The notes beneath the pieces are model-generated. The model searched no databases and had not been told where the DNA came from. It saw nothing but the letters and a program-made list of their open reading frames with translations. The position numbers and the translations under genes were made by a program. From Lutibacter sp. (GTDB lineage Bacteria > Bacteroidota > Bacteroidia > Flavobacteriales > Flavobacteriaceae), in the NCBI GenBank assembly GCA_036568005.1, contig DATCTJ010000026.1, positions 4,142 through 68,141 of the forward strand: a stretch of DNA of 64,000 bases. Direction: 5' to 3'. The first letter of the stretch is position 1; each line of letters starts with the position of its first letter. Shown in pieces: positions 521 to 62,087 of this stretch.

Positions 521-2191
521 ATGGAACCTATCTTAAAAGTACAGAATTTATCCATTTCATTTGACCAAAATAAGGTGGTTAATGAGGTTTCATTTGAACT
601 GAACTCACAACAGATTTTAGGAATTGTAGGTGAATCTGGTAGCGGTAAATCGGTTACTGCCTTAGCGATTTTAGGATTGCTCCCAAAAAATGCGACCATC
701 ACCGGCAGTATTTTATTCAACAACGCCAATTTACAATCGACTTCAGAAAAAGATTTTCAAAAAATCAGGGGAAATAAAATCTCCATGATTTTTCAAGAGC
801 CCATGAGTTCCTTAAATCCGAGTTTAACTTGTGGTTATCAGGTTCAGGAAATTTTATTGCAGCACAAAAAACTGTCAAAAAAAGAAGCTAAAAATCAGGT
901 GATTGCGCTTTTTCATAAGGTGAAATTGCCAAGGGCAGAAATGATGTACAGCCAATATCCGCACCAACTTTCGGGCGGACAAAAACAGCGGGTGATGATT
1001 GCGATGGCAATCGCCTGCAAACCGCAAATTTTAATTGCCGACGAACCCACCACGGCGCTTGATGTTACCATCCAAAAAGAAATTATTGAATTGTTGAAAG
1101 CACTTCAGCAAGAAACTGAAATGAGCATTATTTTTATCACGCACGATTTGGCCTTGGTTTCAGAAATTGCCAATACCGTTTTGGTGATGTACCAAGGAGA
1201 AATTGTGGAGCAGGGAAATGTAACTCAGGTTTTTAAAAATCCTGTCCACAATTATACCAAAGCGCTCATAAATTCGAAACCCAACTTAAAAGAACGCCTA
1301 AAAAAGTTGCCCACCGTAAAAGATTTTATAGAAAACACGGTCGACAATGAGGTGTACACAACCGCACAACGCAACGATTTTCACGACAAAATTTATGCAT
1401 CAATACCCTTGCTGGAAGTAAAAAATTTGGCGACTTATTTCAACACCGAAAAACCTTTTTTCTTCGGAAAAGTAAATCCCGTAAAGGCGGTTGACAAGGT
1501 GTCTTTTCAGCTTTTTGAAGGGGAAACCTTAGGGCTGGTTGGCGAATCGGGTTGCGGGAAAACCACGTTGGGCCGTACCATTCTGCACTTAGAAAAAGCC
1601 ACAAAAGGCCAAATTTTTTACAAACAAAAAGACGTTACCAATCTATCAAATAAGGAGTTGAAGGATTTCAGAAAAGAAGTCCAAATTATTTTTCAAGATC
1701 CGTTTTCATCGCTGAATCCGAGAATTCCCATTGGTGAAGCATTGATGGAACCAATGAAAGTGCACGAAATATTAAATTCATCCGAAGAAAGAAAAAAATA
1801 TGTTTTTGAATTGTTGGAACGCGTGGGTTTGCAAGCAGAACATTTTTATAGATATCCGCATGAGTTTTCGGGCGGACAAAGGCAACGCATTGGCATTGCG
1901 CGTACGATTGTCCTAAAACCAAAATTGATTATTTGCGACGAATCGGTATCGGCACTCGATGTTTCCGTGCAGGCGCAAGTACTAAATTTGCTGAATGAAT
2001 TGAAGGTCGATTTTGGTTTTACCTATATTTTTATTTCCCACGATTTGGCGGTTGTGAAATACATGGCCGATCAGCTGGTGGTGATGAACAACGGTAAAAT
2101 TGAGGAAATGGGCGATGCCGATGCCATTTATCAATCGCCAGAAACAGCTTATGCCCAAAAATTAATAGATGCCATTCCTAAGGGAATATAG
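521..2191 (+). CDS. ABC transporter ATP-binding protein with two fused ATPase domains, Dpp/Opp (GsiA/YejF-like) type
   Basis: Two Walker A motifs ([16 protein letters not shown]), two signature motifs ([16 protein letters not shown]) and two Walker B motifs ([16 protein letters not shown]). Oligopeptide-type C-terminal tails are present ([22 protein letters not shown]). Confidence 0.9.
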
Positions 2192-2225
2192 CCCCCTAAC
2201 CCCCGAAGGGGGACAGAGCGTTAAT

Positions 2226-3403: not shown

Positions 3404-3518
3404 AGATGAAACGAGCCATAACAAATTTTGATACACTGCAGAATGATTAATGGCGAACCCGCCTACCGCAGGCAGGTCGCATCTGTACCAATAGAAAATA
3501 AAAAATAAACAGATGAAA
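3404..3518 (+). repeat. Intra-operonic repeat unit, copy A (with 20-22-nt GC palindrome), bounded by AGATGAAA at both ends
   Basis: Aligns base-for-base with 58378-58492 and 61993-62087. The 3' AGATGAAA contains the ATG (3513) of the downstream lipoprotein gene. Confidence 0.8.
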
Positions 3519-10138: not shown

Positions 10139-13100
10139 TTATATTTTTTGAAGCGTTGCCAAAGCTTTATTTATGGAAGTAATTTTATCAAACGTTAACA
10201 AAAGTCGTAACCCATTTTTCGTTTCTTTTTCTTTTATGCTGCACCCGAGCGGATTTTGCTGAACAAATTGTAAAACTTTTGTAAAAACAGGTGTTTGGTA
10301 AAAAGAACTTTGTTGATTGGAAACAAAATAACCAATCATTTTATTTTTTTTCAGAACAATACGTTCTAAACCTAATGATTTGGCAATCCATTTTATGCGA
10401 ACACTGTTTAACAGATCCACCACTTGAACAGGAAGTTCTCCAAATCGATCAATCAATTCCAGTTCAAATTTTTGCAATTCATCTTCGGTTTTAAGTTCAC
10501 TTAATTTGGTGTATAAATTTAGGCGTTCGGATATCACATTGATATAATCATCTGGAAAAAGAATTTCAAAATCGGTGTCAATCTGAATGTCTTTTACATA
10601 ATCTTTCGGCTTTTCATCCTGTTCTTTATACAATTCTTTAAACTCATTTTCCTTCAGTTCCTCAATGGTTTCATTCAATATTTTCTGATAGGTTTCAAAA
10701 CCGATATCATTGATAAATCCGCTTTGTTCCCCACCCAATAAATCGCCTGCACCGCGAATTTCCAAATCTTTCATGGCAATTTGAATCCCGCTACCCAATT
10801 CGGTAAACAATTCAATGGCCTGAATGCGTTTTCGGGCATCATCAGTCATCATATGGTACGGAGGGGTAATAAAATAACAAAACGCTTTTTTGTTTGATCG
10901 CCCAACGCGTCCGCGCATTTGGTGCAAATCGGACAAGCCAAAATTGTTGGCGTTGTTGATAAAAATGGTGTTTGCGTTTGGCACATCCAAACCGCTTTCA
11001 ACAATGGTTGTGGAAACCAACACGTCAAATTCATTGTTGATAAAACCAAGCATCAAGCCTTCCAGCTTTTTGCCATCCATTTGTCCGTGGCCAATTCCAA
11101 TTTTTGCATCGGGAACCAATCGCTGCAACATTCCGGCAACTTCTTTAATGTTTTCGATGCGGTTATGAATAAAAAATACTTGTCCGCCCCGCTGAATTTC
11201 ATAGCGAATAGCATCTCGAATCACTTCTTCACTAAAACGGATCACATTGCTTTCAATGGGAACACGATTTGGTGGCGGTGTGTTGATGACCGATAAATCG
11301 CGCGCCGCCATTAATGAAAACTGCAAGGTTCTCGGGATTGGCGTTGCTGTAAGCGTTAAGGTATCAATATTTTCTTTTAAAGTTTTCAATTTATCTTTAA
11401 CGGCCACGCCAAATTTTTGTTCTTCATCAACAATTAACAAGCCTAGATCTTTGTATTTTATTACCGGATTGGTAAGTTGATGTGTTCCTATCACAATGTC
11501 AACTGACCCATCTTCCAATCCTTTCAGCACAGCTTTTCTTTGATTGGCGGTCCTAAATCGGTTTAAATATTCTACGGTAACCGGAAAATCCTTTAATCGT
11601 TCTGTAAAGGTTTTAAAATGCTGAAAAGCTAAAATAGTGGTTGGTACCAAAATAGCAACTTGTTTCCCATTATCAACAGCTTTAAAAGCGGCCCTGATGG
11701 CAACTTCTGTTTTTCCGAAACCTACATCTCCACAAACCAAACGATCCATTGGGCGTTCATTTTCCATGTCACTTTTCACATCTTGGGTTGATGAAGATTG
11801 ATCTGGTGTGTCTTCGTACAAAAAGCTGGCTTCCAGTTCATGCTGCAAATAACTGTCTGGACGGTATTGAAAACCTTTTTGCATTTTGCGTTTCGCGTAC
11901 AATTCAATCAAATTGAAGGCAATATGTCTAATGCGCGATTTTGTTTTTTGTTTTAATGCTTTCCAGGCGCCGGAACCCAACTTATGCAATTTAGGTGCAG
12001 TGCCGTCTTTGCCGTTATATTTGGCAATTTTATGAAGTGAATGAATGCTGATGTATAAAATATCCCGATCACCATAAATCAATTTAATGGCTTCTTGCTG
12101 TTTGCCTTCGACATCAATTTTTTGAAGTCCGCCAAATTTCCCGATGCCGTGGTCAATATGCGTCACATAATCGCCAATTTCAAGATTGGTCAATTCTTTT
12201 AAGGTGATGGTTTGTTTTTTGGCATAGCCGTTTTTTAAGCGGAACTTATGATAACGCTCAAAAATTTGATGATCGGTATAACAAACCAATTTATTTTCTT
12301 CATCAATAAATCCTTGAAACAATGGAAAAACGAGGGTTGTATATTCCAATTCCTTGTCGAGGTCGCTAAAAATATCGTGAAAACGATCGGCTTGTTTTTG
12401 TGAATCGCAAAACAGATAATTTTTATAGCCATTTTCGCTATTTTGATGAAAATTTTCAACAAGTAAATTGAATTGTTTATTGAATGATGGTTGTGGTTTT
12501 GTGTTGAAGATCACAAGGTCATGCTGAACCTGCCTTGCCGGCAGGCAGGCTTGTTTCAACATCTTTTCATTTGATTTTGAATCGTCTTGAGAAAGCCTTG
12601 CATTCACAATTTCAACCAAAGAAAAAGTCTGTAATTCTTTTTTTATGAGGTCGCCATCACAAAAAAGTTCATTTGGTTTTGCGTGATTTAAAGCCGAAGA
12701 CAAATCTTTAAAAGCGATTTCTGCCTTGCCAAAAAGGTTGTCCAGGGTATTATAAAGCAGGTTTAAATCTTTAGCAAAAACAATGGTTTTATCAGAAATG
12801 TATTTTAAAAAACTGTCTCTTTTTTCAGTTAGTGCTTTATTTTCAACATTGGGCATTATGCCAATTTTATTTATTTTTTCTGTCGAAAGTTGCGTTTCAA
12901 CATCAAAAGTACGGATGCTTTCCACTTCATCATCAAAAAACTCAATACGATAAGGTTCATCATTCGAAAAAGAAAAGACATCAATAATACCGCCTCTAGT
13001 AGAAAATTCTCCTGGCTCACTTACAAAATCCACTCGGTTAAATTGGTATTCAAACAAAACCTCATTCACAAAATCTAAACTCAGTTTATCATTGACACTA

Positions 13101-13561
13101 ATTTTTAAAGTGTTTCGGTTTAACTCTGCCTTAGTGACAACCTGTTCAAAAAGCGCTTCAGGATAAGTGACAATAATTGCCGGTTTTTTACGAGAATTAA
13201 TTCGGTTTAAAACTTCTGAACGTAACAAAACATTGGCGTTGTCGGTTTCTTCTATTTGATAAGGCCTTCGGTAGGAACCCGGATAGAAAAGCACATCCTT
13301 ATCGTTTAAAAGTAGCTCCAAATCATTTAAATAATAGGCAGCTTCTTCTTTATCATCAAAGATTAACAAAAATGGTTTGTCAACTTTTTTAAAACTTTCA
13401 GAAATAACAAAAGACAATGACGATCCAACCAAATTCGAAATTTGAAAATGGTGATTATCCTTTCGTAATAGTGGAACCAACTGTTTTTGCTCAACAATTT
13501 GTCCGTAAATTTTAACAATAGCTTGTTTGCTCAAATTTGCAAATTTTGCCAAAGGTAGCAT
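10139..13561 (-). CDS. mfd: Transcription-repair coupling factor Mfd
   Basis: Superfamily-2 helicase motifs (GDVGFGKTEVA, LLIVDEEQKFG, TLTATPIPRT, QMRGRVGRS) and a CarD-like domain (GDYVTHIDHGIGKF). Start set at the ATG at 13561 (MLPLAKFAN); the 78-codon upstream extension in the ORF track has no Mfd-like sequence. Confidence 0.95.
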   Translation of the reverse strand: MLPLAKFANLSKQAIVKIYGQIVEQKQLVPLLRKDNHHFQISNLVGSSLSFVISESFKKVDKPFLLIFDDKEEAAYYLNDLELLLNDKDVLFYPGSYRRPYQIEETDNANVLLRSEVLNRINSRKKPAIIVTYPEALFEQVVTKAELNRNTLKISVNDKLSLDFVNEVLFEYQFNRVDFVSEPGEFSTRGGIIDVFSFSNDEPYRIEFFDDEVESIRTFDVETQLSTEKINKIGIMPNVENKALTEKRDSFLKYISDKTIVFAKDLNLLYNTLDNLFGKAEIAFKDLSSALNHAKPNELFCDGDLIKKELQTFSLVEIVNARLSQDDSKSNEKMLKQACLPARQVQHDLVIFNTKPQPSFNKQFNLLVENFHQNSENGYKNYLFCDSQKQADRFHDIFSDLDKELEYTTLVFPLFQGFIDEENKLVCYTDHQIFERYHKFRLKNGYAKKQTITLKELTNLEIGDYVTHIDHGIGKFGGLQKIDVEGKQQEAIKLIYGDRDILYISIHSLHKIAKYNGKDGTAPKLHKLGSGAWKALKQKTKSRIRHIAFNLIELYAKRKMQKGFQYRPDSYLQHELEASFLYEDTPDQSSSTQDVKSDMENERPMDRLVCGDVGFGKTEVAIRAAFKAVDNGKQVAILVPTTILAFQHFKTFTERLKDFPVTVEYLNRFRTANQRKAVLKGLEDGSVDIVIGTHQLTNPVIKYKDLGLLIVDEEQKFGVAVKDKLKTLKENIDTLTLTATPIPRTLQFSLMAARDLSVINTPPPNRVPIESNVIRFSEEVIRDAIRYEIQRGGQVFFIHNRIENIKEVAGMLQRLVPDAKIGIGHGQMDGKKLEGLMLGFINNEFDVLVSTTIVESGLDVPNANTIFINNANNFGLSDLHQMRGRVGRSNKKAFCYFITPPYHMMTDDARKRIQAIELFTELGSGIQIAMKDLEIRGAGDLLGGEQSGFINDIGFETYQKILNETIEELKENEFKELYKEQDEKPKDYVKDIQIDTDFEILFPDDYINVISERLNLYTKLSELKTEDELQKFELELIDRFGELPVQVVDLLNSVRIKWIAKSLGLERIVLKKNKMIGYFVSNQQSSFYQTPVFTKVLQFVQQNPLGCSIKEKETKNGLRLLLTFDKITSINKALATLQKI
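12529..12550. repeat. GC-rich palindrome (CCTGCCTTGCCGGCAGGCAGGC) inside the mfd coding sequence
   Basis: 17 of 22 nt are G/C in AT-rich coding DNA. It contains the perfect palindrome TGCCGGCA flanked by CCTGCC/GGCAGG and matches the palindromes at 3457-3478, 32159-32178, 41094-41111 and 58430-58451. It is read in frame as ACLPARQ. Confidence 0.7.
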
Positions 13562-13628
13562 TTTAAAAAAAATGAGGAAAAATTCAGCAAAAATTATTAA
13601 ATTTATAGGAACTAAATAAAAAAATCTT

Positions 13629-14069
13629 ATGCCAATTTCAGATTTATACCCAACCGGACTGCATGAACAAAATATTGGGCATTTTGCATCAATTGCTAGG
13701 CTAGCTTTACTCGACAATAAGATTAGTGCCGAAGAGCAAATATTATTAGAGAGATTGGCCGTAAGATTGGATATAAGCAAAAGTGAGTTTGACACTATAT
13801 TAAAAGCACCAGAGAATTATCCAATAGACTCACCAGTGAGTTATGAGGAACGTTTAGAGCGTTTATATGATTTAACTAAAATGCTATTCTTGGATAAAAA
13901 CCCAACCATTGATAAAACCTCAACATTGGACAGAATTGCTGTGGGTCTTGGGTTTCCTGCCGAAAATGCAAGAGCTATTGTAAAGGAAGCTATGAAATTC
14001 TTTTTAAAAGAACCTGATGTGGAAGATTTTAAAAAAGTAATAAAACAAGCCAATCCCATTAAACATTAG
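13629..14069 (+). CDS. TerB-like (tellurite-resistance TerB family) small protein, paralog 1
   Basis: 146 aa with a two-lobed helical pattern: HFASIARLALLDNKISAEEQILLERLA, then LYDLTKMLFLDKNPTIDKTSTLDRIAVGLGFP. Confidence 0.6.
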   Translation: MPISDLYPTGLHEQNIGHFASIARLALLDNKISAEEQILLERLAVRLDISKSEFDTILKAPENYPIDSPVSYEERLERLYDLTKMLFLDKNPTIDKTSTLDRIAVGLGFPAENARAIVKEAMKFFLKEPDVEDFKKVIKQANPIKH

Positions 14070-19861: not shown

Positions 19862-20650
19862 ATGAAACATGTAAAAATTGCCTTTTTGGCTTTGTTATTA
19901 ATTGTATCCTGTCGTACTACTAAAGACACCAGTAATGCCCAGAATATACACGATGCCGATAATGACGGCGTTGAAGATTGTAGAGATAGATGTCCAAATG
20001 TACCTGGTTTAGCTAAATTTTACGGTTGCCCTGATACAGATGGAGACGGGATTGAAGACAGTAAAGATAGATGCCCAGAAGTTGCGGGTTCAAAACTATT
20101 ACAAGGTTGCCCAGATAGAGATGGAGACGGTACTCCAGATATAGACGATGCTTGTCCAGATGTTCCTGGTCCAAAAACAAATGCAGGTTGTCCATTTAAA
20201 GATACTGATGGAGATGGTGTAATTGACTTAATTGACAGATGTGTAACTGTAAAAGGTCCAGCTTCAAATTATGGTTGTCCAGTGATACCAGGTCAAGAGA
20301 TTATGACTCAATTGAATGAGTATGGAAGAACTATTTTGTTTGATACCGCTAAATGGACTTTCAAACAAGAGTCTTATTCTGTTTTACAGCCGATGACAAC
20401 AATATTAAAAGAATACCCAGACGCTGATTTTGTAATTGAAGGTCATACTGACAGTGTTGGTTCAGATCAATCTAATCAGTTATTATCTGAAAGAAGAGCA
20501 AATGCAGTTAAAGACTATTTCATCGCAAATGGCATCAGTGTAGACAGATTAACAACAAAAGCTTTTGGAGAAAGTAAACCTATTGACACTAATGACACGC
20601 CTGCAGGTAGAGCAAACAACAGACGTACTGAAGTTAAATTAGCAGAATAA
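19862..20650 (+). CDS. OmpA-family lipoprotein: thrombospondin type-3 repeats plus OmpA C-terminal domain, no barrel
   Basis: Lipobox LLIVS-C, four to five D-x-D-x-D-G/CP repeats ([57 protein letters not shown]), and an OmpA_C motif ([23 protein letters not shown] ... NRRTEV). Confidence 0.85.
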   Translation: MKHVKIAFLALLLIVSCRTTKDTSNAQNIHDADNDGVEDCRDRCPNVPGLAKFYGCPDTDGDGIEDSKDRCPEVAGSKLLQGCPDRDGDGTPDIDDACPDVPGPKTNAGCPFKDTDGDGVIDLIDRCVTVKGPASNYGCPVIPGQEIMTQLNEYGRTILFDTAKWTFKQESYSVLQPMTTILKEYPDADFVIEGHTDSVGSDQSNQLLSERRANAVKDYFIANGISVDRLTTKAFGESKPIDTNDTPAGRANNRRTEVKLAE

Positions 20651-20678
20651 CAGGTTGTAAATTTATATATAACATTCT

Positions 20679-20716
20679 AATCGCCTAAAAGTTTAACATT
20701 TAGGCGATTTTTTTTG
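20679..20716 (+). terminator. Rho-independent terminator
   Basis: AATCGCCTAAA / TTTAGGCGATT, an 11-bp stem, followed by a T run. Confidence 0.7.
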
Positions 20717-20857
20717 CGTAAAACATATTAATAATCTAATTTTAAATAAGAAATACAGAAAATTAAAATCTGAAAGTTATATTTTTTGAATAAATGATAA
20801 GAATAGCATAACTTTGCTAATAAGTAAAAAAAAGAATATTAATTAATTTTTATAAAA

Positions 20858-22216
20858 ATGAAACATTTAAAAATTGCCATGCTGGCTTTATTTCTAATTA
20901 CTGGTTTAAGTAATCTAAACGCACAAGACAAAAATAACCCCTGGGCTATTGGTATTGGCGTAAACGCAGTAGATTTTTACCCTACAAATGCTCTTGGCAG
21001 TTGGGGTGATGAGTTTTTTAACATAGGAGACCATTATAATATACTTCCTGCCATATCAAGAATAACTGTCGGTAAATATTTGGAGGATGGCTTTACTATT
21101 GAAGGAACAGGTTCTTTGAACCAAATTTCCAAAATTGGAGACAAAAGCGTTAGTGATTTAATGTATGTTGGTTTAGATGGCGCTTTAAAGTACGACCTAA
21201 ACTATGTCATAGGAGAAACAGGATGGTTTGATCCTTATGTTTTAGTTGGTGGAGGTTACACTTGGATAGATAAATTCGGAACAGCTACTGTAAATGGTGG
21301 TGGTGGAATTAATTTTTGGTTTAGTGATAATATTGGTTTAAATGTTGAGTCTAAATACAAACATTCATTTAACAGCGATAATGTTTTAAGACACTTTCAA
21401 CATTCTGTTGGGATTGTATTAAAATTTGGAGGAACAGACACAGATGGTGATGGTGTTTACGATAAAGATGATGCTTGTCCAGATGTATTCGGATTGGCGG
21501 CATATAATGGTTGTCCTGATACTGATGGTGATGGCGTTATTGATTCAAAAGACGATTGCCCTACTGTAGCAGGTTTAGCAGCTTTAAATGGTTGTCCAGA
21601 TGCTGATGGTGATGGAATTGCAGATAAAGATGACGCTTGTCCAAATGAGAAAGGAACTAAAGCAAACAAAGGTTGTCCAGATACTGACGGAGATGGAGTT
21701 GTTGATAAAGATGATGCTTGTCCAACCGTAGCCGGTCCAGCCGCAAATAAAGGTTGCCCTTGGCCAGATACTGACGGAGATGGTGTTACAGATAATATAG
21801 ACAAATGCCCAACTGTTGCTGGTCCAGCTTCAAATGATGGATGTCCTGTAGAACCAACTGTTGAGGTTATGGCAACATTGAATGAATATGCAAAAACTAT
21901 TTTATTTGATACAGGAAAAGCAACTTTCAAAAAACAAGCTGTGGATGTATTAAAAGCAATGACAACAATTTTCAAGGAATATCCACAAGCTGATTTTGTA
22001 ATTGCTGGTCATACTGACAGCGTTGGTTCTGATAGATCAAACCAATTATTGTCTGAAAGAAGAGCTGCTGCAGTTAGAGATTATTTAATCTCAAATGGTA
22101 TCAATGCTGATAGATTGACAACTGTAGGTTTTGGAGAAAGCAAACCAGTTGACACTAATAATACAGCCGCAGGCCGTCAAAATAACAGACGTACAGAGGT
22201 TACTTTAAAAAAGTAA
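20858..22216 (+). CDS. OmpA-family outer-membrane protein: beta-barrel plus thrombospondin type-3 repeats plus OmpA C-terminal domain
   Basis: Signal peptide, barrel homologous to 14680-15309, six DTDGDG/CP repeats, and [23 protein letters not shown] ... NRRTEV. Confidence 0.9.
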
Positions 22217-29515: not shown

Positions 29516-29657
29516 GCTGGATGTTTAAAAAATATTTTTCTTTAATTCTTGAAATTTGCAATGATGAATTTAAGTTGCGTTAAGGAAAGAGCGGCATGTT
29601 TGAGCACTTTTTTACGGTTTTTTTACCGATAAAAAATGCGAGTAGCGATTGCCTGAC

Positions 29658-29680
29658 CCCCCGCCTTTTCGGCGGGGGGA
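29658..29680. other. All-G/C 9-bp hairpin (CCCCCCGCC-TTTTC-GGCGGGGGG) in the convergent queD/pth gap
   Basis: Perfect inverted repeat read directly from the sequence. No flanking T run. Confidence 0.5.
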
Positions 29681-29730
29681 AACGCCCAACAAAAAGGTGT
29701 GAGAAGACTCAAAATAAAATTGAATTGTTT

Positions 29731-32111: not shown

Positions 32112-32119
32112 TAAATTTG
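32112..32119 (+). promoter_or_regulatory. Candidate Bacteroidota -7 promoter box TAAATTTG
   Basis: Exact match to TAnnTTTG, 16 nt upstream of the first (truncated) tRNA copy. Confidence 0.4.
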
Positions 32120-32134
32120 CACTCCGATACATTT

Positions 32135-32186
32135 GCCTCGATGGCGGAATTGGTAGACCTGTCTGCCGACAGGCAGGCGCGCTGGA
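32135..32186 (+). pseudogene. Dead 5' fragment of tRNA-Leu(CAA): nt 1-24, a 20-nt palindromic insert, then nt 25-32
   Basis: 32135-32158 and 32179-32186 are identical to 32446-32477. The intervening CTGTCTGCCGACAGGCAGGC is absent from the intact tRNA. Confidence 0.85.
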
Positions 32187-32196
32187 ATGAAAAAGT

Positions 32197-32445
32197 ATGT
32201 TTTATGTATATGCAATATCAAGTTTATCACATAATTATATTTATGTAGGATTGACACAAGACGTTGATGAAAGGATAAAAAGACATAATGGCGGTAGAGA
32301 AAGAACTACAAAATTTTATAAACCTTTTGAATTAATTTTTTCAGAGGTTTGTGAAACAAGAATTGAAGCTCGATTTCGTGAAAAGTATTGGAAATCTAGC
32401 ATAGGAAAAGAAAAGTTAAGAATTTTAAGGAATTCTTTAAAATAG
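32197..32445 (+). CDS. GIY-YIG nuclease family protein (YhbQ/UPF0213-like, 82 aa)
   Basis: FYVYAI ... YIYVGLT ... ERIKRHNGG ... EARFREKYWK matches the GIY / YIG / Arg / Glu core of GIY-YIG domains. Confidence 0.85.
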   Translation: MFYVYAISSLSHNYIYVGLTQDVDERIKRHNGGRERTTKFYKPFELIFSEVCETRIEARFREKYWKSSIGKEKLRILRNSLK

Positions 32446-32529
32446 GCCTCGATGGCGGAATTGGTAGACGCGCTGGATTCAAAATCCAGTTTTCGCAAGG
32501 AAGTGTGGGTTCGATTCCCACTCGAGGTA
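32446..32529 (+). tRNA. tRNA-Leu (anticodon CAA), class II with long variable arm, no encoded CCA
   Basis: Manual fold: acceptor GCCTCGA/TCGAGGT, anticodon stem CTGGA/TCCAG with loop TTCAAAA, variable arm TTTC-GCAA-GGAA, T arm GTGGG-TTCGATT-CCCAC, discriminator A. Confidence 0.9.
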
Positions 32530-32533
32530 CTAA

Positions 32534-35321: not shown

Positions 35322-37298
35322 TTATTCCCACTTCAAATCATCAATATAATAAATGTCACTTGCCGTTCCGTCTGATGCTCCTCCATTGAAAAATAAGACT
35401 ATTTTTTTATGATTTGCCGCAGCTTGGTCACTAAAATCGAAGGTATATTCCGTCCAGGCATTTGAGGTAGTAATAGCTCCCCAAACTTCTTTGGCACCAG
35501 AAGTTCCTCCTTCTAATTTGGCCAATAAAGGCACTGCTTTTGAAGACCATATCTTAATTTTCAGTTTATTTTTTGTCGACAAATTAATTGCGGCTCCAAG
35601 ATCAAACACTAAAGCATCCCAGGCATCTGTGCCATTATCAATTACTTTTAAAACAGCATTACTTGTATTAATACCTGTTTTTGAAGGATTCGTAACAATT
35701 TCTGTTGTGATACAGCATACCACCGCATAATTTTGTTGACATTCAAAATTATTTACAATGCTTAAATCTGGAATCACACCAGCACAAGGATCATATGCCG
35801 CAAACCTGATGTCATCAATATAATAAACATCTGATGCGGTTCCGTCATTTTGTCCACCGTTGAAAAATAGCACTATTTTTTGATGGTTTGCAGTAGCCTG
35901 ATCACTAAAATCAAAGACGTACTCTGTCCAGATTCCCGTTTCAGTAATTGCGCCCCAAACTTCTTTAGCTCCTGAAGTTCCTCCTTCTAATTTAGCCAAT
36001 AAAGGTACTGCCCTCGTTGATAATATTTTAATTCTCAGGTAGTTTTTTGTTGACAAATCTATTGATCCGCCAAAATCAAATACCAAAGCATCCCAGGCAT
36101 CGGTGCCATTATCTGTTACTTTTAGTACTGAATCACTTGTATTTATGCCACTTGGATCTGGATTTTCAACAATTGAATTGGTTATATATCCTGGAATGGT
36201 TGAATTTTGCTGACAATTAAAATCGTTTATAATACTTGGGTCTTTAATTACACCATTACAAGGATCTGTAACTTCCCCAAATTTTAAGTCATCTATATAA
36301 TAAACATCTTCGCCATTTGTGTCAACTCCTGCATTAAAGAAAAGCACTAATTTTTGATGATTTGCATTGGCCTCACTGCTGAAATCAAATGAATATTCTT
36401 TCCATTCTCCAGTAGTTGTAATATTGACATCTTTTTCAATTCCGGCTGATGTGCCGCCTTCCAGTTTTGCTTTTAAAACACCTTCAACTGGTGCAAGCAC
36501 TTTTATTTTGAAGGTATTGTGCGTGGTTAAATTTATTGGCGCACCAAAATCAATAATTACAGCATCCCATGCCCCTGTTTCATCAACATATTTTCCTGAG
36601 AATTTACTACCGTTTATGTTATTTTTGTTAGGTGTTGCGGTAAGTTCTACTTCAGGTACATCCTGATTTTGCTGACAGTCAAAATCATTTATGATATTTA
36701 AATCCTCTGCAACACCAGCACAAGGATCTATTGAAGTATCCCATCTTAAATCATCAATATAATATACATCAGCACCACTTGTATCAGCACCAGCATTAAA
36801 AAATAACACCAATTTTTGATGATTTTGATTGAACTGACTACTGAAATCGAAAGAATATTCCACCCAATTGGTTGTGTTTGAAATGGTGGCATCAACCTCT
36901 ATTCCTCCAGAAGTACCACCTTCCAGTTTTGCTTTTAAAGTACCTGCAACATTTGTTTGCACCTTGATTTTAAAAGTGTTTTTTGTTGAAAGATTTATAG
37001 GAGCACCATAATCTATAATTAATGCATCCCAAGCACCTGAAGGATCTATGTATTTTCCAACAAATCTACTCGTGTTGAGACCTGACCAATCTGGATTATA
37101 AACAGCTTCAACATCTGGAAGAATCATATTATCCTGACATTCAAAATCGTTGATAATGGAAGGATCGGCAGTTTCCGGAGTTTCACATGGTACAGATTCA
37201 ATTATTGGATAATAAGTGTCTTCGTTGCATGATGCCATACTTATTATCAACAGCATAACAAGCAATAAATTAGTTGGTTTAAATTTGAAAGTTTTCAT
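35322..37298 (-). CDS. Surface lipoprotein made of four tandem ~155-aa CBM-like beta-sandwich repeats (candidate surface glycan-binding protein of the PUL)
   Basis: Lipobox IISMAS-C. There are four colinear repeats, each with DPC-x-GV ... IINDF-x-CQQN ... AWDA ... FG ... INL-x-TKN ... KAKLEGGTS-G ... W-x-EY-x-FDFS ... NH-x-K-x-VLFFN-x-G ... YYIDD. Confidence 0.7.
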   Translation of the reverse strand: MKTFKFKPTNLLLVMLLIISMASCNEDTYYPIIESVPCETPETADPSIINDFECQDNMILPDVEAVYNPDWSGLNTSRFVGKYIDPSGAWDALIIDYGAPINLSTKNTFKIKVQTNVAGTLKAKLEGGTSGGIEVDATISNTTNWVEYSFDFSSQFNQNHQKLVLFFNAGADTSGADVYYIDDLRWDTSIDPCAGVAEDLNIINDFDCQQNQDVPEVELTATPNKNNINGSKFSGKYVDETGAWDAVIIDFGAPINLTTHNTFKIKVLAPVEGVLKAKLEGGTSAGIEKDVNITTTGEWKEYSFDFSSEANANHQKLVLFFNAGVDTNGEDVYYIDDLKFGEVTDPCNGVIKDPSIINDFNCQQNSTIPGYITNSIVENPDPSGINTSDSVLKVTDNGTDAWDALVFDFGGSIDLSTKNYLRIKILSTRAVPLLAKLEGGTSGAKEVWGAITETGIWTEYVFDFSDQATANHQKIVLFFNGGQNDGTASDVYYIDDIRFAAYDPCAGVIPDLSIVNNFECQQNYAVVCCITTEIVTNPSKTGINTSNAVLKVIDNGTDAWDALVFDLGAAINLSTKNKLKIKIWSSKAVPLLAKLEGGTSGAKEVWGAITTSNAWTEYTFDFSDQAAANHKKIVLFFNGGASDGTASDIYYIDDLKWE

Positions 37299-39683: not shown

Positions 39684-41036
39684 TTAAAAATGCGGACTTG
39701 TAAATTCTAATTTTTTTAATCCTGCCTGCACTTCCGGACTCGACATAAATAAATCCCAAAGCAATCCGGTTCGGTGATTTTCAATCATAATAATTATTGG
39801 CCCTTGGTCAATAGCCAAATAATTTGTGGCATACCAATTTTCTGTCTGGTTAAAAGCATCATAAAATCCGTAATCTCCCCATAGTTTTCCATCGAAATTA
39901 TAATAGAAATTTCGCATTGCTTGCATAGAATATTCTGGCGTATAGGGAAATGATGACAATGCTGCTGTTGGGGAAATAACACCTAAATCATTTGTTGGAC
40001 TGTGGGCCGAATAACCTTGGTGGTCGTCGCTTGCTGTGAGCCCCCAATTTTCCGCGCCATATCCAACAAATTGTTTCGGATTACTAACACAATATTCTCG
40101 ATTTATAAGTGTATGACTTACGTTTTGATCCCAATAATTTGCGTATTTATCAGCCAAATTTCTCGGATCTAATCCTAAAAAAGAATAATGCGCAAAAAAT
40201 AGAGGTCCGCCATAACTTGGTCCCAATGGCAACTTCCATTTTTGATAATACACCGTGCCATTTGTAAATTCATTTCCTTTTGTCCAGCCATTTTGATAAG
40301 CAGTTTTGTTTATCGCATGGTTTGTTGATGATGCAGCCAGCACATAGGTTATAAGGGCTTCATCATAGCCTGTTATTTCATGATTTATGGCCCAGCCATA
40401 ATTTGGAGACCAATGCCAAATCAAGACATCTTTATTATTGGTGTACCAATCCCATTCTACTTCATTCCACAATTGGTTAATTTTAGTCCGAAGTGAATTT
40501 TCTAGCGTGTTGTCCTTGTTAAAATATTGGCGAACTGTTAATAAACCCTGAATCAAAAAGGAGGTTTCAACAATATCGCCACCATCATCTGTTGAGAAAA
40601 AAGGTCTCACTTTTCCCGTATCTCCATAATACCAATGTGGAAAAGCCCCGTGAAAACGATCAGCTTTTAATAAAAAATCGGTTATTTTATGCAAACGTTC
40701 TATGGCTTGATCTCTTGTAATATAATTTCTTTCAACGCCTACAACAATGGCCATTACGCCAAAACCGCTTCCGCCTGTGGTAACAATGTTAGAAGCTTCC
40801 CCTCCGTAAGCTTCTACGTTTGATCGCTCTAAGGCCAAACCACTTACAGGATGTGCAAAATCCCAAAAATACTTAAACGTGTTTTTTTGTACCAAATCCA
40901 TCAACTCGGTATCAGTAAGTTGTTGCGGCAGTGGATCAGTTGGATTTGTGTTGTTTTCACTTCCGGAACAAGATTGTAAGGAGGTGTAAAACAGACAAAA
41001 AGCTATTAATGTAAATATGCGGGATGTAAGTTTCAT
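39684..41036 (-). CDS. Lipoprotein of the putative-glucoamylase (Pfam Glycoamylase) / GH144 endo-beta-1,2-glucanase-like family
   Basis: Lipobox LQS-C. W/Y-rich (alpha/alpha)6-like sequence with the N-terminal motif FKYFWDFAHPVSGLALERS. Family assigned from memory of homologs annotated as glucoamylase family protein. Confidence 0.55.
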   Translation of the reverse strand: MKLTSRIFTLIAFCLFYTSLQSCSGSENNTNPTDPLPQQLTDTELMDLVQKNTFKYFWDFAHPVSGLALERSNVEAYGGEASNIVTTGGSGFGVMAIVVGVERNYITRDQAIERLHKITDFLLKADRFHGAFPHWYYGDTGKVRPFFSTDDGGDIVETSFLIQGLLTVRQYFNKDNTLENSLRTKINQLWNEVEWDWYTNNKDVLIWHWSPNYGWAINHEITGYDEALITYVLAASSTNHAINKTAYQNGWTKGNEFTNGTVYYQKWKLPLGPSYGGPLFFAHYSFLGLDPRNLADKYANYWDQNVSHTLINREYCVSNPKQFVGYGAENWGLTASDDHQGYSAHSPTNDLGVISPTAALSSFPYTPEYSMQAMRNFYYNFDGKLWGDYGFYDAFNQTENWYATNYLAIDQGPIIIMIENHRTGLLWDLFMSSPEVQAGLKKLEFTSPHF

Positions 41037-41060
41037 GTGTCTATATCATTTTTTTTAAAG

Positions 41061-41165
41061 GTCATCTTTCGACTGTGCCCAGCACAAACATGCTGCCTTC
41101 CGCAGGCAGGTTCGCTGTCAGTCATTTCGTTGGGTAATACACCTTTTACCATGCTTGTTTCCTAA
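41061..41165 (-). repeat. Diverged copy E of the intra-operonic repeat unit (minus orientation, contains the GC palindrome)
   Basis: The reverse complement reads GAAACAAGCATGG ... AATGACTGACAGCGAACCTGCCTGCGGAAGGCAGCATGT ... AAGATGAC. This is colinear with GAAACGAGCAT ... GATGATTAATGGCGAACCTACCTGCGGCAGGCAGGCAGCATCTGT ... CAGATGAAA of copy B. Confidence 0.55.
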
Positions 41166-41305
41166 CTTATTAAAGTCAATAATAAAAGGAATGAACCTTT
41201 TTAAAATTAAATTTCTATAACCAAAAGACTTTTTACCTAAAATTTGGTTGTCAACATTAAAATAATGCTGTGTGCAACAGTGCAAAAAGTCTTTTGATTA
41301 ATTTT

Positions 41306-58377: not shown

Positions 58378-58492
58378 AAATGAAACGAGCATTACAAATT
58401 TTGATACACAAGGGGATGATTAATGGCGAACCTACCTGCGGCAGGCAGGCAGCATCTGTTACCAATAATAAATAAAATTTAAACAGATGAAA
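58378..58492 (+). repeat. Intra-operonic repeat unit, copy B (with GC palindrome)
   Basis: Colinear with 3404-3518. It ends in AGATGAAA, which supplies the ATG at 58487. Confidence 0.8.
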
Positions 58493-60882: not shown

Positions 60883-61950
60883 ATGTATCAAATAGAGGAA
60901 CCGACATATTTTTATTATTTGGCAATTATCCCCGCAATAATTGTGCTGTTTCTTTTGGTGCTTTGGTGGAAATCACGCATTCAAAAGCGATTTGCAGATC
61001 ACAAATTAATAAAAAAATTAAGTCCGGAAAAATCAACCTTTAAATCGTTTTTAAAGTTATTTGTTTTTTGTTTTGCCCTGTTCTTTTTAATTATATCATT
61101 GGCAAACCCTAAAATGGGAACAAAATTAGAAACAGTTAAACGCGAAGGTGTTGATATTGTTTTTGCTTTGGATGTTTCAAAAAGTATGGAGGCCGAAGAT
61201 ATTGCGCCAAACCGGTTGGAAAAAGCCAAGCAAATTATCACAAAAGTGATAGAAAACTTGGGAAGCGACCGCATAGGAATTATTATTTATGCAGGAAGTT
61301 CGTATCCGCTGCTTCCAATCACAACGGATTATGCCGCGGCAAAGATGTTTTTGCAAAATGCAAACACAGAGATGGTTTCCAATCAAGGAACAGCTATAAA
61401 TGACGCAATTGATCGCGCACTTTCTTATTATGACAATGATGAGCAAACCAACCGATTTCTTGTGATAGTTTCAGATGGTGAAGACCACGAAGAAAACACC
61501 ATGGAATTGGCTAAAGAAGCTGCGGAAAAAGGAATAAAAATTTATACTGTGGGCATTGGAACTGCAAAAGGAGGCCCTATTCCAATTAGGGAGAACGGAA
61601 GGGTTGTTGCTTATAAAAAGAACAATAAAGGAGCGGTGGTTGTCACCCAAATGAATGAACAAGTTTTAAGGGATATTGCCATCGCTGGAAAAGGAAAATA
61701 CATAAATGGAAATAAAACGCAGGAAACCATTGAAATTATTAAAGAAGTTTTGAAAAAAGCCGAAAAAAACGAGTTTGAGACCAAACAATTTTCAGATTAT
61801 GAAGATCAGTTTCAGTGGTTTGTGGGCATTGGTTTATTGTTGTTAATTATTGACGTAATATTACTTGAAAAGAAAACAAAATGGATTCAAAAACTAAATT
61901 TATTTAATGAAAAGAGCCTCACAGCTGATGATACAAAAAGGAATGACTAA
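60883..61950 (+). CDS. batB: VWA-domain membrane protein BatB
   Basis: TM segments, MIDAS motif DVSKSM, VSDGEDHE, and a C-terminal TM segment. Confidence 0.85.
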   Translation: MYQIEEPTYFYYLAIIPAIIVLFLLVLWWKSRIQKRFADHKLIKKLSPEKSTFKSFLKLFVFCFALFFLIISLANPKMGTKLETVKREGVDIVFALDVSKSMEAEDIAPNRLEKAKQIITKVIENLGSDRIGIIIYAGSSYPLLPITTDYAAAKMFLQNANTEMVSNQGTAINDAIDRALSYYDNDEQTNRFLVIVSDGEDHEENTMELAKEAAEKGIKIYTVGIGTAKGGPIPIRENGRVVAYKKNNKGAVVVTQMNEQVLRDIAIAGKGKYINGNKTQETIEIIKEVLKKAEKNEFETKQFSDYEDQFQWFVGIGLLLLIIDVILLEKKTKWIQKLNLFNEKSLTADDTKRND

Positions 61951-62087
61951 TGGCGAATAGCAGCTGTACCAACAAAAAAATAAAATATAAACAGATGAAA
62001 CGAGCCATAACAAATTCTGATACACAGCAGAATGATAAATGGCGACTGCATCTGTATAAATAAAAAATAAAATATAAAGAGATGAAA
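61929..62087 (+). repeat. Intra-operonic repeat, 1.5 tandem units (C1 partial, C2 full), both lacking the GC palindrome
   Basis: 61993-62087 is colinear with copy A except for a 20-nt deletion at the palindrome site. 61929-62000 matches the 3' two-thirds of the unit. Confidence 0.75.

What the first reader, a model, noticed from the sequence alone, without database searches (positions are those of the whole stretch)
32159..32178. A discrete 20-nt GC-rich palindrome behaves as an independent insertion
The dead tRNA fragment differs from the live tRNA by exactly one 20-nt block, CTGTCTGCCGACAGGCAGGC, inserted between C24 and G25. Related palindromes occur at 3457-3478 (CCCGCCTACCGCAGGCAGG), 58430-58451 (CCTACCTGCGGCAGGCAGG), 41094-41111 (reverse complement CCTGCCTGCGGAAGGCA) and 12529-12550 (CCTGCCTTGCCGGCAGGCAGGC). 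In the larger repeat family the unit length between the bounding AGATGAAA motifs is 107 bp with the palindrome (copy A) and 87 bp without it (copy C2), again a difference of exactly 20 nt. All five copies are preceded by GAAC or AGAC. The motif is therefore gained or lost as a unit at a preferred site, independently of its host sequence. No transposase is visible in the window.
Basis: seen in the sequence. Interest (0 to 1): 0.8.

Follow-up and report, generated by a model that had tools for sequence, protein, structure and literature searches.

The report
Widespread 20-bp palindrome tied to GIY-YIG/tRNA-Leu cassette
The 20-base GC-rich palindrome that splits a dead tRNA-Leu fragment is real and belongs to a REP-like family found in many bacterial phyla, but this copy is an old, conserved part of a small cassette made of a GIY-YIG nuclease gene and tRNA-Leu, not a fresh independent hop.

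Summary
At 32158-32177 (equally 32159-32178) a 20-nt palindrome, CCTGTCTGCCGACAGGCAGG, is the only difference between a 32-nt 5' tRNA-Leu fragment and the live tRNA-Leu(CAA) 270 nt downstream. Four related copies lie at the stated places.

Empty sites show clean insertion of 19-21 nt with no target duplication:
- in-frame in mfd
- inside an 87-93-nt repeat
- in tRNA copies

The family (consensus CCTGCCTGCCGGCAGGCAGG) occurs in Bacteroidota, Ignavibacteria, Patescibacteria, Planctomycetota, Nitrospirota, Chloroflexota and viral contigs. It also sits in frame in recG, recF and other genes.

- Of 80 metagenome loci chosen only by this protein, 78 carry the palindrome within 300 nt. So do 7 of 7 further loci at other tRNA-Leu genes.
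- GIY-YIG is the only gene family that recurs next to palindromes.
- The prsA-[fragment+palindrome+GIY-YIG]-tRNA-Leu(CAA) locus is syntenic across Flavobacteriaceae.
- The palindrome is 95% conserved there, while its non-tRNA flanks are at 30-38%.

So the focal copy is a selected, resident part of the cassette. The mechanism is inferred, not shown: a REP/RAYT-like partnership with a structure-specific GIY-YIG nuclease, in which the palindrome also breaks the direct repeat. I found no description of this in the literature.

The parts
32158..32177 (.). Focal 20-nt palindrome CCTGTCTGCCGACAGGCAGG (equivalent register 32159-32178). It is the resident copy of the GIY-YIG/tRNA-Leu cassette.
   Evidence: The same variant at the same site occurs in 25 of 40 unique orthologous loci, with 94.7% mean pairwise identity. 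RNA hairpin -11.2 kcal/mol.
32135..32157 (+). Dead tRNA-Leu fragment, nt 1-23 (GCCTCGATGGCGGAATTGGTAGA), identical to the live tRNA.
   Evidence: ARAGORN and Rfam call no tRNA here.
32178..32186 (+). Dead tRNA-Leu fragment, nt 24-32 (CGCGCTGGA). It ends at the 5' strand of the anticodon stem.
   Evidence: Orthologous loci keep CGCGC and in some cases up to about 40 more tRNA nt.
32112..32119 (+). Putative Bacteroidota -7 promoter box TAAATTTG (TAnnTTTG), upstream of the dead fragment.
   Evidence: Sequence. A TAnnTTTG box lies within 60 nt upstream (mostly 10-22 nt) of the dead fragment in 25 of 38 loci, against 3 of 33 upstream of the live tRNA and a 4.8% background. The consensus itself is from prior knowledge.
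32197..32445 (+). 82-aa GIY-YIG nuclease ORF (catalytic domain only). Its stop codon abuts the live tRNA.
   Evidence: Pfam PF01541, E=6e-18. Nearest solved structures are UPF0213 proteins 1ZG2 and 1YWL. The ORF is intact in 79 of 80 related loci.
32446..32530 (+). Intact tRNA-Leu(CAA).
   Evidence: ARAGORN. Rfam RF00005, 60.8 bits.
12529..12549 (.). 21-nt copy inside mfd (ORF 10139-13795, minus strand). It is in frame and encodes ACLPARQ in the variable linker.
   Evidence: Protein alignment of 120 Mfd homologues. DNA-level empty site in L240/L241, filled in L001.
3458..3476 (.). Copy inside the 107-nt repeat unit upstream of the DUF4292 gene.
   Evidence: The whole repeat is absent at the orthologous junction in L001 (sequence) and, from the adjacent or overlapping gene coordinates, in L240 and L241.
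58431..58449 (.). Copy at the same position of a second unit of that repeat.
41092..41110 (-). Copy in a diverged unit of the same repeat (41030-41175, minus strand), upstream of the glucoamylase-like gene.
   Evidence: Local alignment score 83 against 33 +/- 5 for shuffles.
3406..3517 (+). Host repeat unit with the palindrome (ATGAAACGAGCC...AAACAG, followed by the gene's ATGAAA).
   Evidence: nhmmer E=7e-22.
58380..58492 (+). Host repeat unit with the palindrome.
   Evidence: nhmmer E=1e-21.
61907..62086 (+). Two tandem host repeat units without the palindrome. The empty site reads GGCGAA|TAGCAGCTGT and GGCGA|CTGCATCTGT.

Best explanation
WHAT IT IS (shown). The block is one copy of a REP-like family of 19-21-bp G+C-rich palindromes. 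The consensus is CCTGCCTGCCGGCAGGCAGG; here it is the two-substitution form CCTGTCTGCCGACAGGCAGG. Members appear as clean insertions with no target-site duplication and no loss of host bases. They are found in intergenic DNA, inside other repeats, in frame inside genes (mfd here; recG, recF and others elsewhere), and above all inside duplicated pieces of class-II tRNA genes.

The focal copy is the resident copy of a conserved cassette:
- the tRNA promoter
- a 5' piece of tRNA-Leu split by the palindrome
- an 82-aa Slx1/UPF0213-type GIY-YIG nuclease gene
- the intact tRNA-Leu(CAA)

This cassette sits next to prsA throughout Flavobacteriaceae. The palindrome there is under constraint. Equivalent cassettes at other tRNA-Leu and tRNA-Ser genes in other orders carry the canonical palindrome in the D-loop or T-loop of the duplicated piece.

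HOW IT WORKS (inferred, not shown).
1. The palindrome extrudes as a hairpin. A structure-specific nuclease cuts at its base, and the hairpin is re-ligated at nicks or at stem/loop junctions. This would explain the exact boundaries without duplication and the insertion sites at cloverleaf junctions. The adjacent GIY-YIG nuclease is the only candidate partner, in a REP/RAYT-like relationship.
2. Within the cassette, the copy is retained because it interrupts the direct repeat between the dead fragment and the live tRNA. That would block pop-out deletion or gene conversion of the selfish gene and would disable the pseudo-tRNA.

My confidence in the descriptive part is about 0.85. In GIY-YIG as the mobilising enzyme it is about 0.3. 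In the repeat-breaking role it is about 0.4.
For: - The insertion is exact: tRNA fragment against live tRNA, the mfd empty and filled sites at DNA level, and the 93-nt repeat with and without it.
- In-frame genic copies lie in real genes: RecG, RecF, the E1 dehydrogenase component and a histidine kinase.
- Link to GIY-YIG:
  - GIY-YIG is the only recurrent neighbour family (14 loci, median distance 42 nt).
  - 78 of 80 loci chosen by protein alone have the palindrome within 300 nt, with only 4 other copies in about 280 kb of flank.
  - 7 of 7 further protein-chosen loci at tRNA-Leu CAA, TAA and GAG have it.
  - One viral contig carries a tRNA fragment, the palindrome and GIY-YIG together.
- Constraint: prsA synteny in at least 57 loci. 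Palindrome identity is 94.7%, against 30% and 38% for the adjacent non-tRNA 20-mers.
- Repeated hits in the dead copy at tRNA positions 8|9, 9|10, the D-loop, 23|24, the anticodon loop and both edges of the T-loop, plus tandem and nested copies.
- The promoter box lies upstream of the dead fragment, not of the live tRNA, so the cassette sits inside the tRNA transcription unit.
- Tandemly duplicated cassettes show that the direct repeats do recombine.
- Prokaryotic Slx1-like GIY-YIG domains are known to be fused or linked to tRNA methyltransferases (PMC1564403).
Against: - Nothing shows that the nuclease touches the palindrome. It is an 82-aa catalytic domain with no DNA-binding domain.
- About 90% of palindrome-seeded loci, including all Patescibacteria, Planctomycetota and GC-rich viral ones, have no GIY-YIG within the roughly 8 kb held.
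- In the window, the cassette copy (T5/A12 variant) differs from all four dispersed copies. That is unlike REP/RAYT, where flanking and dispersed copies match.
- A repeat-breaking role explains why an insert is retained, not why its sequence is kept 20 out of 20.
- All three insertion events represented in the window are shared with other genomes, so there is no evidence of current activity.
- The GAA| preference is not universal, and nesting in the loops of older hairpins is not statistically enriched.
- It is unexplained why the live tRNA next to the nuclease would escape cleavage if tRNA genes are the target.
Confidence: 0.5

Rival explanations
1. Passive sink. The palindrome is spread by some unlinked, unidentified mechanism. 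Duplicated tRNA pieces are simply neutral, highly preferred landing pads, because their loops resemble the target. GIY-YIG is linked only because it creates such dead pieces.
For: - Other unrelated palindrome families (TCCCGATA..TATCGGGA, ACCTACC..GGTAGGT) also accumulate in the same dead fragments.
- Dead tRNA-Leu copies carrying palindromes exist without a GIY-YIG gene in the held DNA (L059, L083, L036).
- Most dispersed copies have no GIY-YIG nearby.
Against: - Occupancy is near 100% (78 of 80 and 7 of 7).
- Palindrome identity is 95% at an orthologous site whose non-tRNA neighbours are randomised. That argues for constraint, not neutrality.
- A site-specific variant and orientation are kept across genera.
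Confidence: 0.2
2. RNA-level module. The palindrome is kept because, as a GC hairpin near the 5' end of the fragment-GIY-YIG-tRNA transcript, it stabilises or processes the mRNA or pre-tRNA (as REPs do in E. coli), or keeps the dead 5' half from mispairing with the live tRNA. Dispersed copies would be by-products.
For: - The promoter box lies upstream of the dead fragment and not of the live tRNA, so the hairpin is transcribed.
- The hairpins are stable: -11 to -14 kcal/mol as RNA.
- The dominant variant has a T opposite G, which is tolerated only on the sense RNA strand.
- REPs are known to act as RNA elements (PMC3733652).
Against: - The reverse-complement variant also occurs upstream of the ORF, at position 9|10. 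That gives a C-A mismatch in the RNA.
- Conservation is of sequence, not just of pairing, and no compensatory changes are seen.
- Downstream-type cassettes carry the palindrome after the ORF, in a 3' tRNA piece.
- No Rfam family matches.
Confidence: 0.15
3. Homing-site immunity or operator. The GIY-YIG protein is a homing-type endonuclease aimed at class-II tRNA genes. The palindrome either destroys its target in the left-over copy or is its binding site. Dispersed copies would be repair scars of off-target cuts filled from the cassette copy.
For: - Cassettes occur at several tRNA-Leu isoacceptors and at tRNA-Ser, on either side of the tRNA, always with a partial duplicate. That looks like repeated homing.
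- The palindrome always lies in conserved D-arm, T-arm or anticodon-arm DNA.
- There are weak profile hits to homing endonucleases.
Against: - The intact tRNA beside the gene keeps the same D- and T-arm sequence, so it should be cut too.
- The protein lacks the DNA-binding domains of I-TevI-type enzymes (82 aa).
- The cassette is fixed at a syntenic locus rather than polymorphic.
- No mechanism is known for copying a 20-nt filler to unrelated breaks.
Confidence: 0.1
4. Not an insertion at all. The 20 nt would be ancestral sequence deleted in the shorter copies, a chance GC-rich palindrome, or an assembly artefact.
For: Deletion and insertion cannot be told apart from a single pair of sequences.
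Against: - The live tRNA, and all tRNA-Leu genes, lack the block.
- More than 100 Mfd orthologues lack the 7 codons.
- The same 20-mer recurs at unrelated sites in isolates and in metagenome-assembled genomes of many phyla.
- Chance expectation is about 0.
- The mfd copy is in frame and is conserved, with a substitution, in a second genome.
Confidence: 0.02

Closest known systems
REP / REPIN elements with RAYT (REP-associated tyrosine transposase) genes ('REPtrons')
   Same: - Short (20-40 bp) GC-rich palindromes dispersed in many copies, often clustered or tandem.
- Occasionally found inside genes, notably replication and repair genes (PMC3733652). Here the examples are mfd, recG and recF.
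- One vertically inherited enzyme gene is flanked by resident copies.
   Different: - The partner gene is a GIY-YIG nuclease, not a Y1/HUH transposase. No RAYT was found in 120 loci.
- There is no GTAG or CGTC tag.
- The same sequence is shared across phyla, whereas REPs are species-specific.
- The resident copies lie inside duplicated tRNA pieces.
Rickettsia palindromic elements (RPEs)
   Same: Palindromic repeats inserted in frame into functional protein-coding and RNA genes, adding short peptide segments (from my own knowledge and PMC3733652).
   Different: RPEs are about 100-150 bp and restricted to Rickettsia. This element is 19-21 bp (6-7 codons) and spans many phyla.
Mobile G+C clusters of yeast and fungal mitochondrial DNA
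   Same: Short GC-rich palindromes scattered in an AT-rich genome. They show presence/absence polymorphism, also occur within a coding gene (var1), form tandem arrays, and have no known transposase (from my own knowledge).
   Different: They are organellar, 30-50 bp, and have characteristic flanking-target duplications. No association with tRNA fragments or GIY-YIG has been described.
Free-standing GIY-YIG homing endonuclease genes (I-TevI, Seg and Mob proteins of T4-like phages)
   Same: A selfish GIY-YIG gene lodged next to or inside a conserved gene, with the target restored (here by duplication). The catalytic motif is present.
   Different: - Only the roughly 80-aa catalytic domain is present, of Slx1/UPF0213 type, with no linker or DNA-binding domain.
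- It is chromosomal and syntenic across a family.
- It is always accompanied by a specific palindrome. This has not been reported for homing endonucleases.
Bacterial MITEs (Correia/NEMIS, RUP, ERIC and others)
   Same: Non-autonomous small repeats that can sit in transcripts and affect neighbouring genes.
   Different: MITEs are 70-300 bp with terminal inverted repeats, target-site duplications and a parent IS element. None of these features is found here.

Membership tests
REP/REPIN-RAYT system | Short imperfect palindrome in many dispersed, mostly extragenic copies | tested here: met
   There are 5 copies in 64 kb. 24% of copies lie in ORFs of 200 aa or more, against 67% for random positions.
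REP/REPIN-RAYT system | Conserved GTAG (or CGTC) tetranucleotide tag at one end | tested here: not met
   Flanks are GAA| in a subset only (12 of 36 unselected copies). They are AGA|, GTG| or GAT| in cassettes, and show no preference in viral copies.
REP/REPIN-RAYT system | Associated RAYT (Y1/HUH transposase) gene flanked by REPs | tested here: not met
   All-against-all clustering of ORFs in 120 loci finds only GIY-YIG as a recurrent close neighbour. Whole genomes could not be searched.
REP/REPIN-RAYT system | Enzyme cleaves or binds the palindrome | not testable with these tools
   This needs biochemistry.
MITE | Terminal inverted repeats plus a target-site duplication, and a related autonomous IS element | tested here: not met
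   The empty and filled sites in tRNA, mfd and the 93-nt repeat show no duplication. Flanking direct repeats of 7 nt or more occur in only 8-10% of copies. No IS element was found.
Rickettsia palindromic element-like in-frame inserts | In-frame insertion into functional genes | tested here: met
   mfd ACLPARQ. RecG, RecF, E1 dehydrogenase and HATPase_c.
Rickettsia palindromic element-like in-frame inserts | About 100-150-bp element of the RPE sequence families | tested here: not met
   The element is 19-21 nt and is found in other phyla. Sequence similarity to RPE families was not compared.
GIY-YIG homing endonuclease cassette | GIY-YIG catalytic domain with conserved Tyr, Arg, His and Glu | tested here: met
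   PF01541, E=6e-18. Invariant Y14, Y16, R26, H30, N31 and E62 in 8 sequences.
GIY-YIG homing endonuclease cassette | Separate DNA-binding domain that gives a long recognition site | tested here: not met
   The protein is 82 aa and the domain covers residues 1-71. The nearest structures are single-domain UPF0213 proteins.
GIY-YIG homing endonuclease cassette | Presence/absence polymorphism of the gene at its target among relatives | tested here: inconclusive
   The sample was chosen by the protein, so empty loci could not be seen. The locus is syntenic in at least 57 of 80. Different tRNA-Leu and tRNA-Ser targets in other orders suggest past mobility.
Functional tRNA gene (for the interrupted copy) | Complete cloverleaf recognised by tRNA models | tested here: not met
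   ARAGORN and Rfam find only 32446-32530. The fragment ends at tRNA nt 32.
Any curated RNA family (Rfam 15) | Covariance-model match | tested here: not met
   Nothing but tRNA at the gathering threshold. No credible hit with E up to 1 around the cassette or the 107-nt repeat.

The most novel reading that the evidence does not exclude
The small Slx1/UPF0213-type GIY-YIG nuclease and the 20-bp palindrome form a two-part selfish system of a new enzymatic class. A structure-specific nuclease, rather than an HUH or DDE transposase, would excise a hairpin and reinsert it without target duplication. The nuclease gene would persist by nesting inside class-II tRNA transcription units, locked in place by its own palindrome. 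The system would span at least eight bacterial phyla and some phages, and would add 6-7-residue inserts to proteins such as Mfd, RecG and RecF.
Probability: 0.27. Interest if true: 0.9.

Novelty: new variant of a known kind. Interest (0 to 1): 0.7.

Why it matters
If this holds, one 20-bp sequence is among the most widely shared mobile-looking motifs in bacteria. It is identical from Flavobacteria to candidate-phyla-radiation genomes, yet it appears undescribed.

It would give the large, functionless family of stand-alone bacterial GIY-YIG (UPF0213/Slx1-like) proteins a concrete genomic partner and a testable substrate. It would also explain:
- a recurrent class of dead tRNA-Leu fragments
- assembly breaks at these cassettes
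- short LPAGRQ-type inserts in conserved repair proteins

Finally, it offers a second natural system, beside REP/RAYT, for studying how hairpin repeats and a single-copy enzyme gene persist together.

Even on the conservative reading (a REP-like family plus a conserved cassette), it is useful for annotation. These blocks are neither tRNA introns, nor sequencing errors, nor pseudogene noise.

Tried and rejected
- Known RNA family: Rfam at gathering and at permissive thresholds gave only the tRNA.
- Literature: there is no paper containing the 20-mer. Searches for GIY-YIG with tRNA-Leu, Bacteroidetes or palindromes, for UPF0213/YhbQ, for REP in Bacteroidetes, and for in-frame palindromic elements found nothing relevant. 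Only general context turned up (PMC1564403, PMC3733652).
- Transposase nearby: none recurs near the palindromes. A broadened GIY-YIG profile added no hits in Patescibacteria, Planctomycetota or viral loci.
- 'Palindromes nest in the loops of older hairpins': suggested by mfd (ATGCTGAA..TTCAGCAT) and by examples seen by eye, but flanking inverted repeats are not enriched over controls. I dropped this as a general rule.
- 'GAA| is the universal target': rejected.
- Intrinsic terminator: there is no T-run, and the live tRNA depends on the promoter upstream of the hairpin.
- Phage origin of the GIY-YIG gene: only 1 relative was found in 2.9 million viral contigs, besides L236.
- Exact-protein look-up of the window's GIY-YIG found nothing, so the source genome itself is not in that index.
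- NCBIfam gave no hit. PADLOC and PHROGs gave only weak homing-endonuclease hits.
- A genome-wide census in the source genome was not possible. Only 64 kb plus fetched loci are available, and the single genome scan needed a GAAC-anchored pattern, which biases those flanks.
Full report
**1. The observation**

The window is from a Lutibacter species (Flavobacteriaceae) with about 34% G+C. At 32135-32186 the sequence reads GCCTCGATGGCGGAATTGGTAGA-CCTGTCTGCCGACAGGCAGG-CGCGCTGGA. The only tRNA gene called in the window is tRNA-Leu(CAA) at 32446-32530. It begins GCCTCGATGGCGGAATTGGTAGACGCGCTGGA.

The upstream piece is therefore the first 32 nt of that tRNA plus exactly one 20-nt block.

Related blocks lie at 3458-3476, 12529-12549, 41092-41110 and 58431-58449. 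Shuffles expect essentially none. The 107 versus 87-nt unit lengths are correct. All five copies follow GAAC or AGAC. As RNA hairpins they range from -6 to -11 kcal/mol; the canonical family member gives -13.9. As short DNA hairpins in context they are only modestly better than shuffles.

**2. It is an insertion, shown by empty sites**

(a) mfd. The 12529 copy lies in the mfd ORF (10139-13795, minus strand) and reads in frame as EKMLKQ-ACLPARQ-VQHD. Among 120 Mfd homologues, only the closest one (P0001, 92% identity) shares the seven residues. Many others read EKMLNQVQHD. At DNA level, two Lutibacter genomes have ...TGCTGAATCAA|GTTCAGCAT. The window and L001 have 21 nt, GCCTGCCTGCCGGC(A/G)AGGCAG, at that point. 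Nothing is duplicated and nothing is lost.

(b) The 93-nt repeat. The copies at 3458, 58431 and 41092 sit at one and the same position (GCGAA|...|CAGCATCTGT) of an 87-93-nt repeat that always abuts a gene's ATGAAA start. Units with and without the block occur side by side in the window (61907-62086) and in other Lutibacter and Flavobacteriaceae assemblies. That repeat is itself absent from the orthologous TPR/DUF4292 junction in L001, L240 and L241.

The window therefore records three insertion events: the tRNA piece, the 93-nt repeat and mfd. Each is shared with at least one other genome. None is private to this genome.

**3. The family is far wider than the window**

Most are the perfect palindrome CCTGCCTGCCGGCAGGCAGG. 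They come from the following groups, including cultured isolates:
- Flavobacteriales, Chitinophagales, Cytophagales, Sphingobacteriales and Bacteroidales
- Ignavibacteria
- many Patescibacteria
- Planctomycetota, Nitrospirota, Omnitrophota, Chloroflexota and Acidobacteriota
- a few proteobacterial metagenome-assembled genomes

The perfect 20-mer also occurs in 35 stretches of viral contigs, with up to six or more copies on one contig.

About a quarter of copies lie inside long ORFs, against two thirds for random positions. Checked examples are real genes with the block in frame:
- RecG (inside the helicase domain, RLPAGRQ)
- RecF
- a 2-oxoacid dehydrogenase E1 component
- a histidine kinase ATPase domain (two copies)

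This matches what is known for REPs, which also turn up inside replication and repair genes (PMC3733652).

Flank statistics are mixed:
- GAA| is enriched among copies not selected by the search pattern (12 of 36 against 4.6%).
- It is not enriched in cassette or viral copies.
- Flanking direct repeats of 7 nt or more occur in 8-10% of copies, against 2% in controls.
- Flanking inverted repeats are not enriched.

**4.

Nineteen nt after the dead fragment starts an 82-aa ORF (32197-32445) whose stop codon abuts the live tRNA. It is a GIY-YIG catalytic domain and nothing else (PF01541, E=6e-18). The nearest solved structures are UPF0213 proteins.

In the palindrome-seeded loci, the only gene family that recurs close to palindromes is this one: 14 loci at a median distance of 42 nt, and no transposase. 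In each case the architecture is the same. An intact tRNA-Leu (CAA, TAA, GAG or CAG) lies on one side of the ORF. A partial duplicate of that very tRNA lies on the other side, and the palindrome is inside the duplicate. It sits in the D-loop (GGAA|..|TTGGTAGAC), at either edge of the T-loop, or in the anticodon loop.

**5. Removing the ascertainment bias**

Eighty metagenome loci were fetched by similarity to the protein alone (61-84% identity).
- 78 have a palindrome within 300 nt. One exception is truncated and the other has a more diverged copy.
- The ORF is intact in 79.
- Only four palindromes occur in the remaining roughly 280 kb of flank.

Seven more loci were reached through homologues of a Chitinophagales protein. 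They come from Algoriphagus, Ekhidna, Chitinophagaceae, a 'Pacebacteria' metagenome-assembled genome and one viral contig, at tRNA-Leu CAA, TAA and GAG, with the ORF upstream or downstream of the tRNA. All seven carry the palindrome in the duplicated tRNA piece. The coupling is therefore close to obligatory.

**6. The focal copy is old and constrained**

In at least 57 of the 80 loci, prsA is the divergent upstream neighbour, as in the window (PrsA 65-87% identical). The locus is therefore orthologous across Flavobacteriaceae.

Forty distinct loci have the standard layout. Mean pairwise identities there are:

| Segment | Identity |
|---|---|
| Palindrome | 94.7% |
| tRNA piece | 82% |
| 20 nt upstream | 30% |
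| 20 nt downstream | 38% |

Twenty-five of the 40 have exactly CCTGTCTGCCGACAGGCAGG. The differences in the tRNA piece are in the acceptor stem, which always matches the live tRNA of the same locus.

Further points from the same loci:
- Additional palindromes have landed in the same dead piece at positions 8|9, 9|10 and the D-loop.
- Some loci have abutting tandem copies or a nested copy.
- Other palindrome families are inserted there too.
- Whole cassettes are sometimes tandemly duplicated.

A Bacteroidota-type -7 box (TAnnTTTG) lies within 60 nt upstream (mostly 10-22 nt) of the dead piece in 25 of 38 loci. It lies upstream of the live tRNA in only 3 of 33, against a background of 4.8%. The fragment, palindrome, ORF and tRNA are therefore most likely one transcript, and the palindrome cannot be a strong terminator.

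**7. Interpretation**

Shown:
- A REP-like family of 19-21-bp palindromes that inserts without target duplication.
- A near-obligatory association with a small GIY-YIG gene nested at class-II tRNA genes.
- Purifying constraint on the resident copy.

Inferred:

(i) The nuclease is the family's trans-acting partner. Bacterial stand-alone GIY-YIG proteins belong to the Slx1 clade of structure-specific nucleases and are repeatedly linked to tRNA methyltransferases (PMC1564403). A hairpin cut at its base and re-ligated at a nick would give exactly the scar-free junctions seen. The insertion points in dead tRNA copies fall at stem/loop junctions of the cloverleaf.

(ii) In the cassette, the palindrome is kept because it interrupts the direct repeat that would otherwise delete or convert the selfish gene. 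Tandem cassettes show that these repeats do recombine.

Points against:
- Most dispersed copies, and all those in Patescibacteria, Planctomycetota and GC-rich viral contigs, have no GIY-YIG in the DNA held.
- The cassette variant differs from the window's dispersed copies.
- An 82-aa domain has no obvious way to read a 20-bp sequence.
- A spacer role does not explain 20-of-20 conservation.
- The live tRNA's immunity is unexplained.

Rivals are a passive sink, an RNA-level hairpin, and homing-site immunity. The passive-sink reading is disfavoured by the conservation and by near-100% occupancy.

**8. Comparison with known systems, and novelty**

The family works like REPs and REPINs, and like Rickettsia palindromic elements when it is in genes. 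It fails the REP/RAYT membership tests: no GTAG or CGTC tag, no RAYT gene, and no species specificity. It is not a MITE: no terminal repeats with a duplication, and no parent IS element. It matches no Rfam family. The GIY-YIG gene has the catalytic motif but lacks the DNA-binding domain of homing endonucleases.

No paper in the searchable library contains the sequence or describes the cassette. I class it as a new variant of a known kind. It becomes categorically new only if the GIY-YIG partnership is causal.

**9. Verdict**

The motif is a unit that is gained at many unrelated sites. But the flagged copy is a fixed, selected part of a nuclease/tRNA cassette, and a candidate enzyme sits right beside it.
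- Interest is high, because of the cross-phylum identity of a 20-bp element and its tight, undescribed link to an orphan nuclease family.
- The mechanism remains inference.

Noticed in passing
window 3406-3517, 58380-58492, 61907-62086, 41030-41175(-); L099 6751-6933, L081 3213-3432: An 87-93-nt repeat (ATGAAACGAGCC...AATGGCGAA...CAGCATCTGT...AAACAG) always ends against a gene's ATGAAA start codon and forms tandem arrays. It is absent from the orthologous TPR/DUF4292 junction in three related genomes. It looks like a separate mobile or duplicating unit that copies the start-codon context. It is not in Rfam.
   Followed up: partly
window 12460-12640 (mfd linker); P0001-P0120: The Mfd linker of Lutibacter species is a patchwork of short lineage-specific inserts. 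The common MLNQVQH segment is itself encoded by a hairpin (ATGCTGAA..TTCAGCAT). Other lineages carry STPLS- or FDSAQRP-type segments that may come from other GC-rich repeat families.
   Followed up: partly
L143, L243 (D-loop of the dead tRNA piece); L161, L173, L190, L019: Other palindrome families (TCCCGATAnnnTATCGGGA; ACCTACC-gag-GGTAGGT) are inserted in the same dead tRNA pieces, so these pieces collect several hairpin families.
   Followed up: no
P0121-P0240: A large share of contigs carrying these GIY-YIG genes are under 2 kb. This suggests metagenome assemblies break at the cassette, at its repeated tRNA pieces and palindromes.
   Followed up: no
L244 (GCA_018062065.1, 'Candidatus Pacebacteria' metagenome-assembled genome): A genome labelled as candidate phyla radiation carries a Bacteroidota-like GIY-YIG/tRNA-Leu(CAA) cassette (70% protein identity) with the perfect palindrome in the D-loop. 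This is either horizontal transfer or mis-binning.
   Followed up: no
L225, L232, L233 (IMGVR_UViG_3300037242_000417); L236: One GC-rich viral contig has at least 6 perfect palindromes in 29.5 kb. Another viral contig (42% G+C) carries a class-I tRNA D-loop fragment split by the palindrome, overlapping the open frame that holds a GIY-YIG domain.
   Followed up: partly
L005, L013, L038, L070, L092, L107; viral L205, L207, L213, L228: Many dispersed copies sit inside short tandem heptamer-like arrays (CACGAAT, TGACGAA, CTCCGAA, TTGCGGA, GGTGAGA). The same unit lies on both sides of the palindrome. It is unclear whether this is a target-site duplication, a preferred target, or a composite repeat.
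   Followed up: partly
window 20021-21812 and 35322-37298(-): Two kinds of internal repeat in coding regions: 81-nt thrombospondin-type-3-like repeats in two OmpA-family genes, and 462-474-nt tandem repeats inside a 658-aa ORF. Both are ordinary repeats unrelated to the finding.
   Followed up: no
window 2191-2220 and 29645-29690: Other isolated GC-rich hairpins (GCCCCCTAACCCCCGAAGGGGG; GACCCCCCGCCTTTTCGGCGGGGGG) lie near gene ends. They look like terminators and do not belong to the CCTGCC family.
   Followed up: no
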